Numbered from the stretch's first letter, positions 34,820-61,710 are shown. The stretch: 64,000 nt of DNA from a virus (IMGVR_UViG_3300040801_003693:32001-96000); one strand, 5' to 3'. The notes: generated from the letters alone by a model not told the origin. Numbers and translations: made by a program.

Positions 34820-35755
34820 ATGATAACCACAACTACAGTACAAAGTCAAGAACCTCAACCACAAAATCAGTTCCAAGTAGTTGCTCATGGGCTGTATAAT
34901 TCTTGGAAGTTTGTTGCTTCGGGAGATGAGGATAGAAAGTTAAAAGCAAGAAAAGAAGTAGCGAATACGCTTGAAGTAAGTAGCCGTGATATAAGCAGAT
35001 CCATTTCTGTAAAAGACTTCTACGAAGGAATTCCACTACAGCACTATTGGGATTTGCCAATAGATACAATATTATCGATTGCTAAAGAAAAATATTTAAT
35101 CCTCCGCGATAATCTAATGCAAATGCCTCACAACAAGGTTAGTATAGAGGCTCTACAGAAGATGGTGGATGAAAATGTTAAAGCATCTAAACCTCCCAAG
35201 GAACCAAGAAAAACCTTCAGTTGGAAGCGCGATCGCTATAACAATCGCAGAGCCATAATAGAACTACCTGATTGCGATACAGCAAGAGAACTAGAAGCGG
35301 ATTTAAAAGATAGCTGCCTGCCCGTACCAACCTACATTAAATCTTTGTTTGAGAAAAAAGAAAGATGCGAGAAGGCGGAACAAGTCCTTAAGGAGAAAGA
35401 AGCCGCAGTAGCAAAGTTAGAAGAATTAATTAAGCAGGAACCACAGCCATCGGTAGCATATGATATCTCAGAGAACAATAGCTCGGTTGCTGAGATTCCT
35501 ATACTTGATAGAAAGAATAGGTATGTACCCCTGGTTGAAGTGTATAAAAACGAAAGTCAAAGAATGAAACAGCACTGCAAGGAAGTATTCAAAAAATATT
35601 GTGATGCAAAGTGTAAATTAAGTGCTGCGATTGCTGAAATCAAAAAAATGAAGGCTGAAATAAAAGCAGCTATGGGTAGTATATTTATCAATTCGGGTTC
35701 TTCAGAAATCCCCGTGTCTTTAGACCGGGGAAGCTTAAAAAAAACAACTAGCTAG
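34820..35755 (+). CDS. hypothetical coiled-coil protein
   Basis: 311 aa; its last codons are supplied by an IS605-end-like sequence. Confidence 0.7.
   Translation: MITTTTVQSQEPQPQNQFQVVAHGLYNSWKFVASGDEDRKLKARKEVANTLEVSSRDISRSISVKDFYEGIPLQHYWDLPIDTILSIAKEKYLILRDNLMQMPHNKVSIEALQKMVDENVKASKPPKEPRKTFSWKRDRYNNRRAIIELPDCDTARELEADLKDSCLPVPTYIKSLFEKKERCEKAEQVLKEKEAAVAKLEELIKQEPQPSVAYDISENNSSVAEIPILDRKNRYVPLVEVYKNESQRMKQHCKEVFKKYCDAKCKLSAAIAEIKKMKAEIKAAMGSIFINSGSSEIPVSLDRGSLKKTTS
35704..35738 (+). mobile_element. IS200/IS605-family right-end remnant
   Basis: AGAAATCCCCGTGTCTTTAGACCGGGGAAGCTTAA resembles the AGAATCCCCG-TTTAG-CGGGGAG-TCAA hairpin end recalled from cyanobacterial tnpB elements. Confidence 0.55.
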
Positions 35756-36041
35756 CTGCAACTAAATCATAAAAAGCAACTACAATTCCGTCATATACAG
35801 AATTACCGCCAGACACTTCAACGTTAATTAGCTGCCACTTTACCTCTGGTTTGTCTAAAGAAGAAACTGTTTGGTATCTTTCTTTGACCAATTCAAGAGC
35901 TTGAGTACTTTTAAGTGAGACTGTGAACACAGGTAAAATATTGTCGTCACTTCTCCCTGGCAAAGGAAGAAAAACACACAAGCTTCCGATTTCAATTTCT
36001 AACATTTCTTTTAGATTTATTTTTTCAATGTACATTGCCAT
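35748..36041 (-). CDS. small partner protein (candidate immunity) of 36017..36418
   Basis: start overlaps the upstream gene's stop; no signal peptide. Confidence 0.6.
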   Translation of the reverse strand: MAMYIEKINLKEMLEIEIGSLCVFLPLPGRSDDNILPVFTVSLKSTQALELVKERYQTVSSLDKPEVKWQLINVEVSGGNSVYDGIVVAFYDLVAAS

Positions 36042-36418
36042 ACTCCTTTTTTCTTGAATACCTTAATTTTTGATTTTGGTGGATATCCTAATTTAAATGC
36101 ACATTCTCTTAATGCAGCTTTCCAAGACTTTGCATTAAGCGGATAAATAGCACCTAAATCTTCTTGCTTCGGGTCTTCTAAATAATCACCATCTTCTATT
36201 TTTCTTACTATCCCTTTAATATTCGCAAAATATTTCTTCTTGGTTTGCCGATGGTACCAGACGTAAGAAGTTACACCACCGACAATAGTTGTACCTACCA
36301 ATACGCAAACTTTTGCACAAATAAGCGGTGCAATTACAATCGGTACTGCCTCAACCTTGCGAGGTGCATTTAGACTAGCTGCTAATCCAACAGCTACAAT
36401 TCTTGGTATTATTTTCAT
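36017..36418 (-). CDS. secreted Cys-rich protein, paralog 1
   Basis: signal peptide ending VEA, hydrophobic CAKVC segment, C-terminal EC...GVWQC. Confidence 0.75.
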   Translation of the reverse strand: MKIIPRIVAVGLAASLNAPRKVEAVPIVIAPLICAKVCVLVGTTIVGGVTSYVWYHRQTKKKYFANIKGIVRKIEDGDYLEDPKQEDLGAIYPLNAKSWKAALRECAFKLGYPPKSKIKVFKKKGVWQCTLKK

Positions 36419-36431
36419 ATTGATGCATTAG

Positions 36432-36584
36432 TTAAATTTCAATATCTATGTTTTGTTCTTTAGTTATTTCATTGCTCCAAGGAGAAGGAATACCGTTTAA
36501 AGGACAAGTAAGCATAAATACCAATGAAAATTCTTCAAGATCGCCTATAAACAACATCTGATTTTTAATATAAATATTATTCAT
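36432..36584 (-). CDS. possible 50-aa ORF (MNNIYIKNQMLFIGDLEEF...)
   Basis: open frame ending 13 nt before the 36418 ATG. Confidence 0.35.
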   Translation of the reverse strand: MNNIYIKNQMLFIGDLEEFSLVFMLTCPLNGIPSPWSNEITKEQNIDIEI

Positions 36585-36672
36585 TCTTTAGTTAAAAAGT
36601 TGCCTACTTTCTATACCCGCTTAATTTCTACCATTAGGTCAGTAATAAATATATCTATTTTTATAAAACTTA

Positions 36673-37044
36673 ATGTTTGAAATTAGTCTCCCTTCAAAAA
36701 AGAAAGTTCAATTTTCTGCTCCAACATTTAATGATCGAAGATTGATGCTGAAGAATTACGACCGTGCTGAAGGATATTTGCCAGAAGATTTATTAGCAGC
36801 AAAGTGTCTGACTCACGTGAATGAATCTCCTGTACAGCAAGATTGGGAAACAGAACCAATCAATAGATTTAATGGTTGGTCTTTAAAGGATCAAGCTTAT
36901 TACTTAGAAGTATTTATGAATATGTTTTCTTTGGATGAGAAAACTAAAGAAGCTGCTGCTCAAGAAGCAAAAAAGTTAATGGGTATGACTGGTACGCCGA
37001 AACCATCTCAAGTAGCTACTCGAAGTTCTGGCAGCGTAAGTTAA
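36673..37044 (+). CDS. tail assembly chaperone (gpG-like)
   Basis: 123 aa with slippery A-AAA-AAG at 36969-36975 near its 3' end. Confidence 0.7.
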   Translation: MFEISLPSKKKVQFSAPTFNDRRLMLKNYDRAEGYLPEDLLAAKCLTHVNESPVQQDWETEPINRFNGWSLKDQAYYLEVFMNMFSLDEKTKEAAAQEAKKLMGMTGTPKPSQVATRSSGSVS

Positions 37045-60269: not shown

Positions 60270-60749
60270 TTAAGTATTAATTAATTCTAAATTAAATATT
60301 TCAGCACAAATATTACCAAGATATACTGGAGCATTTGGAGCTAATTCATATCTAAAGTATTTAGGATTAGTCTCAATCTTTCCATTCTTATTAAAGATTA
60401 AAGGCTTCCATACCACTTGATTTAATTGTGGTTGTTTATTCTTGATTGTAATCTTGTCGTATTCAATAATATCAAATGAATGTGGATAGTCCCTTTCTCC
60501 TGGGAGATAAGGATAGTGATGAATCCATTTAGTATTAAGTGGATTTAGATTAAAATCATGAATAATTAAAGGTGTAATAAATTCTACTGAATTAGTAATG
60601 CTAGTTCCAGTATTTGAATCTGTCATAATAACAATTGTTTCAGATTCAAATTCTACTAGTTTTAATTGACAATAAGAATCCCAATTACCAAATCCATTTC
60701 CAAATCCTTTCCAATTATATTTTGTATTAACTAAAATGTTATATTCCAT
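60270..60749 (-). CDS. hypothetical protein
   Basis: 159 aa, AGGA RBS; NTGTSITNSVE...WIHHYP. Confidence 0.7.
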   Translation of the reverse strand: MEYNILVNTKYNWKGFGNGFGNWDSYCQLKLVEFESETIVIMTDSNTGTSITNSVEFITPLIIHDFNLNPLNTKWIHHYPYLPGERDYPHSFDIIEYDKITIKNKQPQLNQVVWKPLIFNKNGKIETNPKYFRYELAPNAPVYLGNICAEIFNLELINT

Positions 60750-60787
60750 TGCGGTTTTATCCTACTTGAAAATTTAATTAAATAGCA

Positions 60788-60824
60788 GTTTCAATCCCTG
60801 ATAGGGATTAGAATTAATTTCCAC
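60788..60824 (-). CRISPR. solitary 37-nt cyanobacterial type I-D-like CRISPR repeat
   Basis: GTGGAAATTAATTCTAATCCCTATCAGGGATTGAAAC on the - strand: ATCCCT/AGGGAT stem and ATTGAAAC 3' end; no second copy seen in the window. Confidence 0.8.
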
Positions 60825-60847
60825 GGGTAGTACTCGATATGAGAACA

Positions 60848-60999
60848 TTGACCGAGCTTTGAAGCCGTGCGCCCCACGGACTTTTTATCAAATTGTTTTT
60901 TGAAGTTGCAGGCTGCATTTCTGCATTTAATTGGATTACATTTCATCTCACACTTTTCATTTCGGGTAGGGTGTGAGACTTCCCGCCGAGAAAGTTAAA
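60848..60999 (-). mobile_element. mini non-autonomous IS200/IS605-like element
   Basis: - strand begins TTTAACT...hairpin...GATGAA and ends GTCAA; similar to 61712-61892. Confidence 0.5.
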
Positions 61000-61321
61000 G
61001 TTTCATCATTTTTTCAAAGTACCTCATCTTATAAATCAACATAACCAAAGATGGAAGTTCTGGATTTATTGGTTTATAAATCTCAAAGTCCTGGTAATCC
61101 CATATATGATTAGGATTACCTTGACAGCCTACAGTGTAAGCGTGCAAAAACTTATAGCCTTTAATTTTCTTTTGACTACTTAGGTATTTTTTGACTGCTT
61201 CTTCCGGACTTATTTCGCAGCACAAACGTGGTGTTGTAGGAAGACTAAAGTATGAATTAGTTTCAGGACAGGCGGTTAGCATAAAAATAGTTTTTACGCC
61301 TTCTAAAATTTCTGATTTCAT
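60995..61321 (-). CDS. small partner protein (candidate immunity) of 61318..61710
   Basis: ATGA overlap with the upstream stop. Confidence 0.65.
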   Translation of the reverse strand: MKSEILEGVKTIFMLTACPETNSYFSLPTTPRLCCEISPEEAVKKYLSSQKKIKGYKFLHAYTVGCQGNPNHIWDYQDFEIYKPINPELPSLVMLIYKMRYFEKMMKL

Positions 61322-61710
61322 TTAGCAATACATCTCCAACTTCCATTTGATTTTTGTTCAACACGGACAAATTCTAATCCATGCATATCACTTTCTCTTT
61401 GACATCTTTCTTCTGCTTGTTCTTGGGTTAATTCTTTCCCATATATATTGATAACCTGCTCTTCCTCAAAAGCGTCTGGTTCATCAATCATCTTGCGTAC
61501 ATTACCTTTCTCGTCTGCAAAGTATTTCTTCTTTGCAGTGCGGTTATGCCAAACATAAGAAGTCACTCCACCAATAATAGTAGTGCCCAACAAAACACAA
61601 ACCTTCGCGCAAACCAAAGGCGCAATAACTATCGGCACTGCCTCAACTTTACGAGGCATATTTAAACTAACTGCTAATCCAACAGCCAGCATTTCTGATA
61701 AAATCTTCAT
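61318..61710 (-). CDS. secreted Cys-rich protein, paralog 4
   Basis: start at ATG 61710; first about 74 aa highly similar to 36017..36418, C-terminus divergent. Confidence 0.8.
   Translation of the reverse strand: MKILSEMLAVGLAVSLNMPRKVEAVPIVIAPLVCAKVCVLLGTTIIGGVTSYVWHNRTAKKKYFADEKGNVRKMIDEPDAFEEEQVINIYGKELTQEQAEERCQRESDMHGLEFVRVEQKSNGSWRCIAK

What the first reader, a model, noticed from the sequence alone, without database searches (positions are those of the whole stretch)
35748..61710. Four secreted Cys-rich paralogs, each coupled to an unrelated small gene: candidate phage polymorphic toxin/immunity or signalling system
Seen: 36017..36418, 40130..40585, 40811..41281 and 61318..61710 share a signal peptide, a hydrophobic segment with a Cys pair and GG, and a C-terminal domain A-x2-(E/R)C-x~21-29-G-x-(W/Y)-x-C. 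Paralogs 1 and 4 are nearly identical for about 74 aa (PRKVEAVPIVIAPL.CAKVCVL.GTTI.GGVTSYVW) and then diverge abruptly. Each is immediately followed (overlap or 2 nt or less) by a 97-128 aa gene without a signal peptide (35748, 39822, 41283, 60995), and these partners show no visible similarity to each other. Known: conserved N-terminus, variable C-terminus and a cognate downstream gene is the hallmark of polymorphic toxin systems. Inference: a lysogen-encoded bacteriocin/immunity, exclusion or ligand/receptor system.
Basis: partly seen in the sequence, partly recalled or inferred. Interest (0 to 1): 0.85.

Follow-up and report, generated by a model that had tools for sequence, protein, structure and literature searches.

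The report
Membrane-anchored polymorphic gene pairs in cyanophage
A cyanobacterial virus carries five copies of an undescribed two-gene module (a small membrane-anchored protein with a swappable tail, plus a tightly coupled small partner) that also rides on cyanobacterial plasmids and jumping genes, and it looks like a toxin/antidote-type selfish module although no toxicity has been shown.

Summary
The four genes are real paralogs, and a fifth pair lies outside the window. They belong to an unannotated family of about 90 representatives, with no match in Pfam, PHROGs, NCBIfam, PADLOC or PDB. Named members come from filamentous cyanobacteria.

The architecture is a signal peptide with an AxA-type site, a hydrophobic anchor with a Cys loop, a basic stretch, an acidic linker, and a variable tail of about 45-60 aa with two invariant Cys.

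N-terminal and tail similarity are uncoupled (Spearman -0.08 over 1431 pairs), so the proteins are mosaics. A small co-directional gene follows the A gene in 5 of 5 phage loci and 7 of 7 usable non-phage loci: four plasmids, two IS200/IS605 elements and one small Rep replicon.

- The partners are not unrelated. Three of the four look like one divergent, mostly acidic family.
- "Secreted" is doubtful. The charge distribution predicts a membrane anchor with the tail in the cytoplasm.

My best reading (0.45) is a mobile, membrane-tethered toxin/antitoxin- or immunity-like module. Toxicity and binding are untested, and no structure or complex prediction could be run.

The parts
36017..36418 (-). 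A1 (P0001, 133 aa): signal peptide, Cys-loop (CAKVC) membrane anchor, basic stretch, variable tail with 2 Cys
   Evidence: ORF, translation. Family profile match and paralogy. Its tail type is shared with P0012, P0013 and P0041.
35748..36041 (-). B1 (P0005, 97 aa, net charge -5): partner of A1, overlapping the end of A1 by 25 nt
   Evidence: It aligns with the B family (A14), but hhalign against the P0006 type is not significant (E 0.2). An RNA-library contig covers 35691-35851.
35710..35730 (-). G+C-rich hairpin 17 nt downstream of B1 (terminator-like)
   Evidence: RNAfold of the 75 nt downstream gives -18.4 kcal/mol. It is also visible in the alignment.
40130..40585 (-). A2 (P0002, 151 aa, GTG start): most divergent clear paralog, with a Cys loop of 9 residues
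   Evidence: E 2.6e-7 to P0001; the representative P0030 has the same sequence.
39822..40127 (-). B2 (P0006, 101 aa, net charge -10): partner of A2, 2 nt after the A2 stop
   Evidence: Homologous to the partner of pair 5 (phmmer 2e-10; Z 16). hhalign to the Nostoc plasmid B type gives E 1.9e-4.
39787..39809 (-). G+C-rich hairpin 12 nt downstream of B2 (terminator-like, can fold on both strands)
   Evidence: site at 39786-39810; -20.3 kcal/mol.
40811..41281 (+). A3 (P0003, 156 aa from GTG 40811; the ORF is open from ATG 40766): divergent member with a longer segment between signal peptide and anchor
   Evidence: Not significant pairwise. Linked to the family through P0102.
41283..41669 (+). C1 (P0007, 128 aa, net charge +6): partner of A3, a different family from B
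   Evidence: Homologous to the gene after pair 5 (phmmer 3e-7). Not related to B by hhalign (E 0.79). No match in plasmids.
41679..41702 (+). Hairpin 9 nt downstream of C1 (terminator-like)
   Evidence: -15.8 kcal/mol for the 75 nt.
61318..61710 (-). A4 (P0004, 130 aa from ATG 61710; the frame stays open to ATG 61839)
   Evidence: Its tail type is shared with P0018, P0037 (Goleter apudmare MAG) and P0033.
60995..61321 (-). B4 (P0008, 108 aa, net charge +3): partner of A4, overlapping it by 4 nt (ATGA)
   Evidence: Homologous to the gene that follows P0037 in L005 (39% identity; Z 40). hhalign to the Nostoc plasmid B type gives E 5.6e-5.

Best explanation
These are copies of a mobile two-gene module specific to cyanobacteria and their mobile elements.

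Gene A encodes a small type-I membrane protein. Its parts, in order:
- a cleavable Sec signal peptide;
- an uncharged N-terminal stub of 7-13 residues (mostly 9-11) outside the cell;
- a Cys-x3-7-Cys loop at the membrane edge;
- one conserved transmembrane helix (G..GG, aromatic YYVW end);
- a basic stretch and an acidic DPEE-like linker on the cytoplasmic side;
- a variable, usually basic tail domain of about 45-60 aa with two invariant Cys.

Gene B is translationally coupled to A. It encodes a small, usually acidic cytoplasmic protein that (inferred) binds the tail of its own A and keeps it inactive.

Inferred mechanism: A is the harmful partner, most simply by oligomerising through its conserved helix and damaging the membrane. 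B is the cognate antidote. The module therefore favours retention of the element that carries it, or excludes competitors. Tail/partner diversification keeps the five pairs in one phage insulated from each other.

Shown: the family, its architecture, the mosaicism, the coupling and the carriage on mobile elements. Inferred: topology, binding, toxicity and purpose.
For: FAMILY.
- The profile search found 95 representatives at E<=1e-3 and 37 at E<=1e-10. At least 2 of them, and probably 4, are spurious long repeat proteins.
- Named members are from Goleter apudmare and from Nostoc, Fischerella and Leptolyngbya plasmids.

ARCHITECTURE AND TOPOLOGY (55 aligned members).
- Residue -1 of the predicted cleavage site is A, S or G in 53 of 54. 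Residue -3 is A, V, T or S in 50 of 54.
- There is no K/R between the site and the first Cys in 55 of 55.
- The 15 residues after the hydrophobic segment carry a mean of 3.2 K+R against 1.2 D+E. They are net positive in 44, neutral in 7 and negative in 4.
- The hydrophobic segment reaches a Kyte-Doolittle 15-residue mean of 2.1-2.7.

POLYMORPHISM.
- Pairwise identity is 51% in the anchor region and 21% in the tail.
- N-terminal identity and tail similarity are uncorrelated (Spearman -0.08, 1431 pairs).
- Phage-type N-termini carry tails shared with chromosomal members (P0004/P0037: N 0.47, tail 0.60). Near-identical N-termini carry unrelated tails (P0004/P0001: N 0.90, tail 0.11).

COUPLING. 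A downstream co-directional small ORF is present in 5 of 5 phage loci and 7 of 7 usable non-phage loci. Junctions run from an 11-nt overlap to an 11-nt gap outside the phage.

COGNATE CO-VARIATION.
- Pair 4 vs Goleter: tail Z 33, partner Z 40.
- Leptolyngbya vs L007: tail Z 9.5, partner Z 3.6.
- Pair 2 vs pair 5: partner Z 16, tail Z 2.9.

CHARGE. B is net negative in 10 of 12 pairs, and the last 45 aa of A are net positive in 10 of 12.

MOBILE CARRIERS.
- The pair sits between IS200-like tnpA and tnpB in L005 and L008 (Pfam E 1e-35 to 8e-23).
- The transposon proteins are 74-78% identical between these two loci, but the A-B cassette is not alignable.
- Other carriers are four plasmids, a 3.4-kb contig with a rolling-circle Rep, and the phage with exactly 5 A, 4 B and 2 C genes.

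TRANSCRIPTION UNITS. Three of the four window pairs end in a strong hairpin.
Against: - No toxicity, binding or topology experiment exists.
- No structure or complex prediction could be run.
- The tails match no toxin domain (Pfam, 0 consistent families in 55 members) and are very small for an enzyme.
- B has no DNA-binding domain of the kind usual in type II antitoxins.
- Two invariant Cys in a tail placed in the reducing cytoplasm are hard to explain. A structural disulfide would argue for an extracytoplasmic tail, and hence against direct A-B contact in the producer.
- Over all 55 pair-of-pair comparisons, tail and partner similarity do not correlate (Spearman 0.11, p 0.43). The co-variation rests on three cases, only one of which is strong in both the tail and the partner.
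- Pair 3 uses an unrelated partner family (C), and pair 4 reverses the charge pattern.
- Five addiction-type modules in what may be a strictly lytic phage have no obvious use. No integrase was found.
Confidence: 0.45

Rival explanations
1. This is an exported polymorphic toxin or bacteriocin-like peptide with a cytoplasmic immunity protein. A is released from, or displayed on, the producer. Its variable tail acts in or on neighbouring cyanobacterial cells, and B protects kin.
For: - A Sec-type signal peptide with a canonical cleavage site is present.
- Invariant Cys pairs occur both near the N-terminus and in the tail (55 of 55 for the tail), as expected for disulfides formed outside the cytoplasm.
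- The N-terminus is conserved and the tail is shuffled.
- A cognate downstream gene is present.
- Carriage on small and large plasmids recalls bacteriocin plasmids (this comparison is from recall).
Against: - The roughly 30-residue hydrophobic segment followed by positive charge should stop transfer, leaving the tail inside the cell.
- No processing, secretion or lysis gene is linked to the pairs.
- No orphan tail/immunity cassettes exist in the phage contig.
- The tails match no toxin family.
- A cytoplasmic B could meet a periplasmic tail only in a target cell.
Confidence: 0.15
2. This is a non-toxic membrane tether plus a cytosolic client. A recruits or sequesters its own B at the cytoplasmic or thylakoid membrane, as a switch, an exclusion or anti-defence device, or a holin/antiholin-like timer in the phage. 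Under this reading B (or A-B together) is the active part and nothing is a poison.
For: - The topology and coupling evidence is the same as for the best explanation.
- The tail is too small for most enzymes.
- B is as long as or longer than the tail and is itself a conserved-fold family (A14).
- In IS elements A-B-tnpB are packed like one operon (B stop to tnpB start is at most 4 nt), which would suit a regulator of the element.
- The phage copies sit as separate units among structural genes.
Against: - Rapid diversification with shuffling of tails, and multiplication to five or six paralogous pairs per phage, are more typical of conflict systems than of housekeeping regulators.
- No lysin gene lies next to any pair, and there is no holin family match.
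- Carriage on plasmids, IS elements and a Rep replicon as the only cargo fits a selfish stabilising function better.
Confidence: 0.3
3. The finding is a chance or gene-calling artefact: unrelated small ORFs in AT-rich phage DNA that happen to look alike.
For: - The window has about 33% G+C, which produces many spurious ORFs.
- P0003 is not significant pairwise.
Against: - phmmer E values within the contig go down to 1e-36.
- There are 37 database representatives at E<=1e-10.
- The conserved part shows a synonymous-dominated substitution pattern.
- Gene order is conserved in 7 independent non-phage loci.
Confidence: 0.02

Closest known systems
Polymorphic toxin systems (Zhang et al. 2012, PMC3482391; I saw the abstract and the passages returned by a term search)
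   Same: - The N-terminal export/anchoring part is conserved.
- The C-terminal parts are highly diverse and have evidently been exchanged between lineages.
- A small cognate gene follows immediately downstream.
- The system occurs on mobile elements.
   Different: - The proteins are tiny (about 105-180 aa among the fetched members) rather than large multidomain toxins.
- The tail is 45-60 aa and matches no known toxin domain.
- There are no orphan cassettes, and no dedicated secretion system or processing protease.
- The predicted topology keeps the tail inside the producer.
SpoIISA/SpoIISB toxin-antitoxin of Bacillus (PMC4526809 and PMC3057836; only the search listing and the starts of the abstracts were seen)
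   Same: A membrane-bound toxin is encoded first and a small cytosolic antitoxin second. The antitoxin acts on the toxin's cytoplasmic domain, which is the same logic proposed here.
   Different: - There is no sequence relationship (Pfam finds nothing).
- From recall, SpoIISA has three transmembrane helices, a larger cytoplasmic domain and no signal peptide.
- SpoIISA/B is not polymorphic, not mobile-element cargo, and not from cyanobacteria.
Type II toxin-antitoxin (addiction) modules in general (established knowledge)
   Same: - The two small genes are co-directional and often overlap.
- They are carried on plasmids, phages and transposable elements.
- Several insulated paralogous pairs can occur in one genome.
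- One partner is basic and the other acidic.
   Different: - The putative toxin is a signal-peptide-bearing membrane protein.
- The putative antitoxin has no recognisable DNA-binding domain.
- The gene order is toxin first.
- The putative toxin has a modular, shuffled tail.
Phage holin/antiholin pairs, and class II bacteriocin/immunity pairs (both recalled; not tested against any library beyond PHROGs/Pfam)
   Same: - The first gene encodes a small membrane-active protein with a charged C-terminus or a Cys loop.
- The adjacent second gene encodes a small cytoplasmic modulator or immunity protein.
   Different: - No lysin neighbour is present, and there is no holin or bacteriocin family match.
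- The module is present in chromosomes, IS elements and plasmids, and occurs five times per phage.

Membership tests
Polymorphic toxin system | Conserved N-terminal part joined to highly variable C-terminal parts that are exchanged by recombination | tested here: met
   Identity is 51% in the anchor and 21% in the tail. N-terminal and tail similarity are uncorrelated over 1431 pairs, with discordant examples in both directions.
Polymorphic toxin system | Cognate immunity gene immediately downstream | tested here: inconclusive
   Adjacency is met in 12 of 12 usable loci (5 phage, 7 other). Co-variation is seen in three cases, only one of them strong in both the tail and the partner, but is not significant overall. 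Immunity function is not testable here.
Polymorphic toxin system | C-terminal domain is a recognisable toxin (nuclease, deaminase, peptidase, pore-former and so on) | tested here: not met
   Pfam finds 0 consistent families in 55 members. PHROGs, NCBIfam and PADLOC give nothing, and the PDB profile search gives nothing.
Polymorphic toxin system | Arrays of orphan toxin-tail/immunity cassettes downstream of the full-length gene | tested here: not met
   A six-frame profile search of the 135.9-kb contig finds exactly 5 A, 4 B and 2 C genes and no fragments.
Polymorphic toxin system | Toxin is exported to another cell | tested here: inconclusive
   A signal peptide is present, but a stop-transfer-like hydrophobic segment with positive charge after it predicts retention with the tail inside. 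No experiment exists.
Type II toxin-antitoxin module | Two small adjacent co-directional genes, often overlapping, on mobile elements | tested here: met
   Overlaps or gaps of at most 11 nt outside the phage, and an overlap of up to 35 nt or a gap of at most 2 nt in the phage. Carriers are IS200/IS605 elements, plasmids, a Rep replicon and the phage.
Type II toxin-antitoxin module | Antitoxin carries a DNA-binding domain and autoregulates | tested here: not met
   There is no Pfam domain in any of 11 B proteins. Only the Leptolyngbya locus has a separate HTH gene upstream.
Type II toxin-antitoxin module | Toxin arrests growth, and antitoxin neutralises it by direct binding | not testable with these tools
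Holin/antiholin | Match to a holin family, and linkage to an endolysin gene | tested here: not met
   No PHROGs or Pfam holin match at E<=1. None of the neighbours of the four pairs has a lysin domain.

The most novel reading that the evidence does not exclude
This is a previously undescribed, cyanobacteria-specific family of membrane-tethered polymorphic toxin/antidote cassettes. The cassettes move as swappable cargo between tnpA and tnpB of IS200/IS605 elements, packed like one operon with tnpB. They also move on plasmids and on a rolling-circle replicon, and a Ma-LMM01-like cyanomyovirus has amplified them to five mutually insulated pairs. The invariant Cys pair in the cytoplasmic tail would act as a thiol switch that ties activation to the redox (light/dark) state of the photosynthetic host.
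Probability: 0.15. Interest if true: 0.85.

Novelty: new variant of a known kind. Interest (0 to 1): 0.62.

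Why it matters
If the reading holds, this adds a new family of conflict or addiction modules for cyanobacteria and cyanophages. It would have three unusual features:
- a signal-peptide-bearing, single-pass membrane protein as the harmful partner;
- shuffling of a very small tail domain together with its partner;
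- carriage as passenger cargo inside IS200/IS605 elements, which are normally thought to hold only tnpA, tnpB and the guide RNA.

It would give a testable case of how small insertion sequences, plasmids and phages share stabilising cassettes. It would also explain a set of expanded orphan genes in large cyanomyoviruses. If A is not toxic, the family is still a clean, unannotated, lineage-specific protein pair with a defined interaction to test.

Tried and rejected
STRUCTURE AND COMPLEX PREDICTION.
The two accepted jobs were interrupted. There are therefore no models and no fold search.

SEARCHES THAT GAVE NOTHING USABLE.
- Phage database: no DNA match and no tblastn match with P0001 or P0035.
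- Viral-contig scans with P0001 and A5 found nothing beyond the withheld own record.
No census of cyanobacterial genomes was therefore possible. The genome search could not be centred on a cyanobacterium.
- B-family word searches found only the phage's own proteins and Nostoc plasmid-type relatives.
- The ESM Atlas gave no usable hit for P0004 (best 0.78) or P0122.
- P0007 has no plasmid match.
- Literature: four full-text searches found no description of this family. This does not show that none is in print.

EXPRESSION.
- The only RNA library (X3) comes from the same sample as the DNA holders. It gave five short contigs. One covers the 3' end of B1 at depth 3.6, and none covers pairs 2 and 3.
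- Contigs cannot show transcription or its absence, so I draw nothing from this.

REJECTED OR DROPPED.
- C (P0007/P0011) as a member of the B family is rejected (hhalign E 0.79).
- The weak single hits to RNaseH_like, Tudor_4 and Alt-like ADP-ribosyltransferase are all below their cut-offs and are rejected.
- Loci L010-L012 were dropped. They matched over only 19-34 residues. L010 was inspected and holds no member. L011 and L012 were not inspected.

Full report
CONTEXT. The window is bases 32001-96000 of a 135,938-nt linear virus record estimated 78% complete.
- It encodes a Mu-like portal (37536-39092), a capsid protein, a tail sheath and a Cas1-like protein.
- The sheath is 40-43% identical to those of Microcystis phage Ma-LMM01-type phages and of Microcoleus phage My-WqHQDG, in 14 of 14 matching records.
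- It is therefore a large cyanomyovirus of about 33% G+C.
- No tyrosine integrase was found in the contig, so lysogeny is not supported, though it is not excluded.

THE OBSERVATION. The four ORFs and their four downstream partners exist as described.
- Three of the four are clear paralogs (phmmer 1.5e-36 to 2.3e-4).
- The third (P0003) is linked only through a database member, P0102. The family profile found P0102 at 4.9e-5 without P0003 in the profile, and P0102 shares P0003's tail type.
- Paralogs 1 and 4 are 76% identical over 74 residues and 26% identical afterwards. The conserved part is 72% identical in DNA, with 28 synonymous-only against 18 non-synonymous codon differences. It is conserved by selection, not by recent conversion.
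- A fifth pair lies outside the window at G000:C1:104771-105476. It is followed after 167 nt by a homologue of the partner of paralog 3.
- Profile searches of all six frames of the contig find exactly five A genes, four B genes and two C genes, and no fragments. Those genes are in the profiles, so the informative result is the absence of others.

THE FAMILY. A word-index search found 13 proteins (the query itself included) among 33 candidates. Six of them lie on one 59.7-kb contig of another assembly.
- The exhaustive profile search found 95 representatives at E<=1e-3 (37 at <=1e-10), nearly all 105-180 aa and matched end to end.
- Two of the four long multi-stretch hits were inspected and are repeat proteins matched by composition. 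The other two were not inspected.
- One member is a named hypothetical protein of the Nostocales MAG Goleter apudmare. tblastn finds members on plasmids of Nostoc sp. PCC 7524, Nostoc sp. HK-01, Fischerella sp. NIES-4106 and Leptolyngbya boryana.
- No sequenced phage in the collection has one.
- No library recognises A or B:
  - Pfam;
  - PHROGs;
  - NCBIfam;
  - PADLOC;
  - PDB sequences;
  - ESM Atlas.

ARCHITECTURE AND TOPOLOGY. These figures come from 55 aligned members.
- The first hydrophobic stretch ends in a canonical signal-peptidase site: -1 is A/S/G in 53 of 54, and -3 is A/V/T/S in 50 of 54.
- Next come 7-13 (mostly 9-11) uncharged residues with no K/R in 55 of 55, and then a Cys...Cys loop of 5, 7 or 9 residues in 51 of 55.
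- A very hydrophobic helix follows, with G..GG and an aromatic end. After it come 15 residues with a mean of 3.2 K+R against 1.2 D+E, net positive in 44 of 55 and negative in 4.
- An acidic DPEE-like linker follows, and then a tail with exactly two Cys in 55 of 55.
- By the positive-inside rule (established knowledge) this is a type-I anchor with the tail in the cytoplasm, not a secreted protein.
- The invariant tail Cys pair is the main fact that does not fit. A structural disulfide would place the tail outside. I could not test Cys proximity because no model could be made.

POLYMORPHISM. The anchor region is 51% identical on average and the tail 21%.
- Over 1431 pairs, with one N-terminally truncated sequence left out, N-terminal identity and tail similarity are uncorrelated (Spearman -0.08).
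- The tail of phage A4 recurs on chromosomal members with a different Cys-loop type, and the tail of A1 recurs on P0041. Members with 77-90% identical anchors carry unrelated tails.
- This mosaic pattern is the one described for polymorphic toxins (PMC3482391, abstract).

THE PARTNERS.
- B4 is homologous to the gene after the Goleter member (39% identity).
- Eleven partners, including B1, B2 and B4, align with an invariant Trp and a nearly invariant Tyr.
- Profile comparisons link the B4 type and the B2 type through the Nostoc plasmid type (E 5.6e-5 and 1.9e-4). They do not link them directly (0.26), and B1 is not significant (0.2). I therefore rate 'one B superfamily' as likely, not shown.
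- C (P0007, P0011) is a separate family.
- B is net negative in 10 of 12 pairs, and the last 45 residues of A are net positive in 10 of 12.

COUPLING AND CARRIERS. Every usable locus has a co-directional small ORF that overlaps the A stop by up to 11 nt, or starts at most 11 nt after it, outside the phage.
- These loci are L005, L007, L008 (L009 is the same element), L014, L015 (a close relative of L014), L016 and L017, making 7 of 7.
- L006 holds only a truncated A abutting a TnpB fragment.
- In L005 and L008 the pair lies between an IS200-like tnpA and a tnpB.
- TnpA and TnpB are 78% and 74% identical between the two loci, whereas the A-B cassette is not alignable. Related IS elements therefore carry different cassettes.
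- L007 is a 3.4-kb contig with repeated ends and a rolling-circle Rep.
- In the window, three pairs end in strong hairpins and lie on the opposite strand to, or between, structural genes, as inserted independent units would.

CO-VARIATION.
- Same tail, same partner holds strongly for pair 4 and Goleter (Z 33 and 40).
- It holds more weakly for Leptolyngbya and L007 (9.5 and 3.6) and for pair 2 and pair 5 (2.9 and 16).
- Over all 55 comparisons of 11 pairs there is no correlation (Spearman 0.11, p 0.43).

INTERPRETATION.
- Shown: a lineage-specific, mosaic, membrane-anchored protein family that is tightly coupled to a small partner and carried almost only on mobile elements.
- Inferred: B binds the cytoplasmic tail of its own A. 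A is harmful when unbound, most simply through its conserved helix. The module stabilises or defends its carrier.
- The logic resembles the membrane toxin SpoIISA with its cytosolic antitoxin SpoIISB (PMC4526809, start of the abstract as shown in the search listing).
- I give this reading 0.45, a non-toxic tether/client or phage-timing device 0.30, and an exported bacteriocin-like toxin with immunity 0.15.
- It fails two membership tests for classical polymorphic toxin systems (no toxin domain, no orphan cassettes) and one for type II TA systems (no DNA-binding antitoxin). I therefore file it as a new variant of a known kind, not as a member of either.

LIMITS.
- There is no structure, no complex prediction, no genome-wide census and no experiment.
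- Expression evidence is limited to short contigs from one RNA library of the same sample, and I do not use it.
- Supplementary files of papers were not consulted.

Noticed in passing
outside the window: L003:1456-2733 (= G000:C1:104771-106048): A fifth A gene (P0009, 123 aa) is overlapped by a B gene (P0010). A C-family gene (P0011) follows after 167 nt. Here B and C occur together behind one A.
   Followed up: partly
L005:4449-7040; L008:232-2536; L009; L006: In cyanobacterial DNA the A-B pair sits between an IS200-like tnpA (divergent) and tnpB, with B's stop at most 4 nt from the tnpB start. Related IS copies carry unrelated A-B cassettes. L006 has a truncated A abutting a TnpB fragment. 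Passenger genes inside IS200/IS605 elements are unusual.
   Followed up: partly
L007:1-3437: This 3.4-kb contig repeats the same coding sequence at both ends, so it is probably circular. It encodes a Phage_CRI/G2P-like rolling-circle Rep (E 4.5e-15) and an A-B pair as nearly its only other cargo.
   Followed up: partly
window 61711-61839 (- strand): The frame of A4 stays open 43 codons upstream of the conserved Met. The translated extension is similar in homologues from other assemblies (P0027; weaker in P0015, P0016, P0020). This could be a conserved 5' leader or a longer N-terminal form.
   Followed up: no
window 35699: DNA contigs of runs X1 and X2 each show a loose end here, 49 nt downstream of B1. 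A co-occurring variant diverges exactly at the edge of pair 1.
   Followed up: no
window 62130-63101 (- strand): A Cas1-like protein (Pfam Cas_Cas1 E 2e-11, over the cut-off) is encoded by the phage. No CRISPR array or cas2 was looked for.
   Followed up: no
window 13945-20294 (- strand): At least three interleaved families of small paralogous ORFs lie in this stretch (phmmer E 1e-29 to 1e-6). The members, by start coordinate, are 14444/16905/17499/17933/18302, then 15502/15932/16410/18793, then 13945/15000/19944. This phage expands several small-gene families, not only the A-B pairs.
   Followed up: partly
window 13049-13636 and 10979-11464 (- strand): The first has a sub-threshold match to Tox-MPTase4 (metallopeptidase toxin 4; E 1.3e-4, 22.3 bits against a cut-off of 25). 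The second is its paralog (1e-12).
   Followed up: no
window 23200-29760 and 29896-34299 (- strand): Two very large ORFs (2186 and 1467 aa) have no Pfam match at E<=1e-3.
   Followed up: no
window 34453-34717: The deepest RNA-library contig in the laid stretch (depth 43) covers the 124-aa ORF at 34364-34738, which has no family match.
   Followed up: no
L017:3724-3987: In the Leptolyngbya boryana plasmid, an HTH_3 regulator gene overlaps the start of the A gene. This makes a three-gene unit not seen in the other loci.
   Followed up: no
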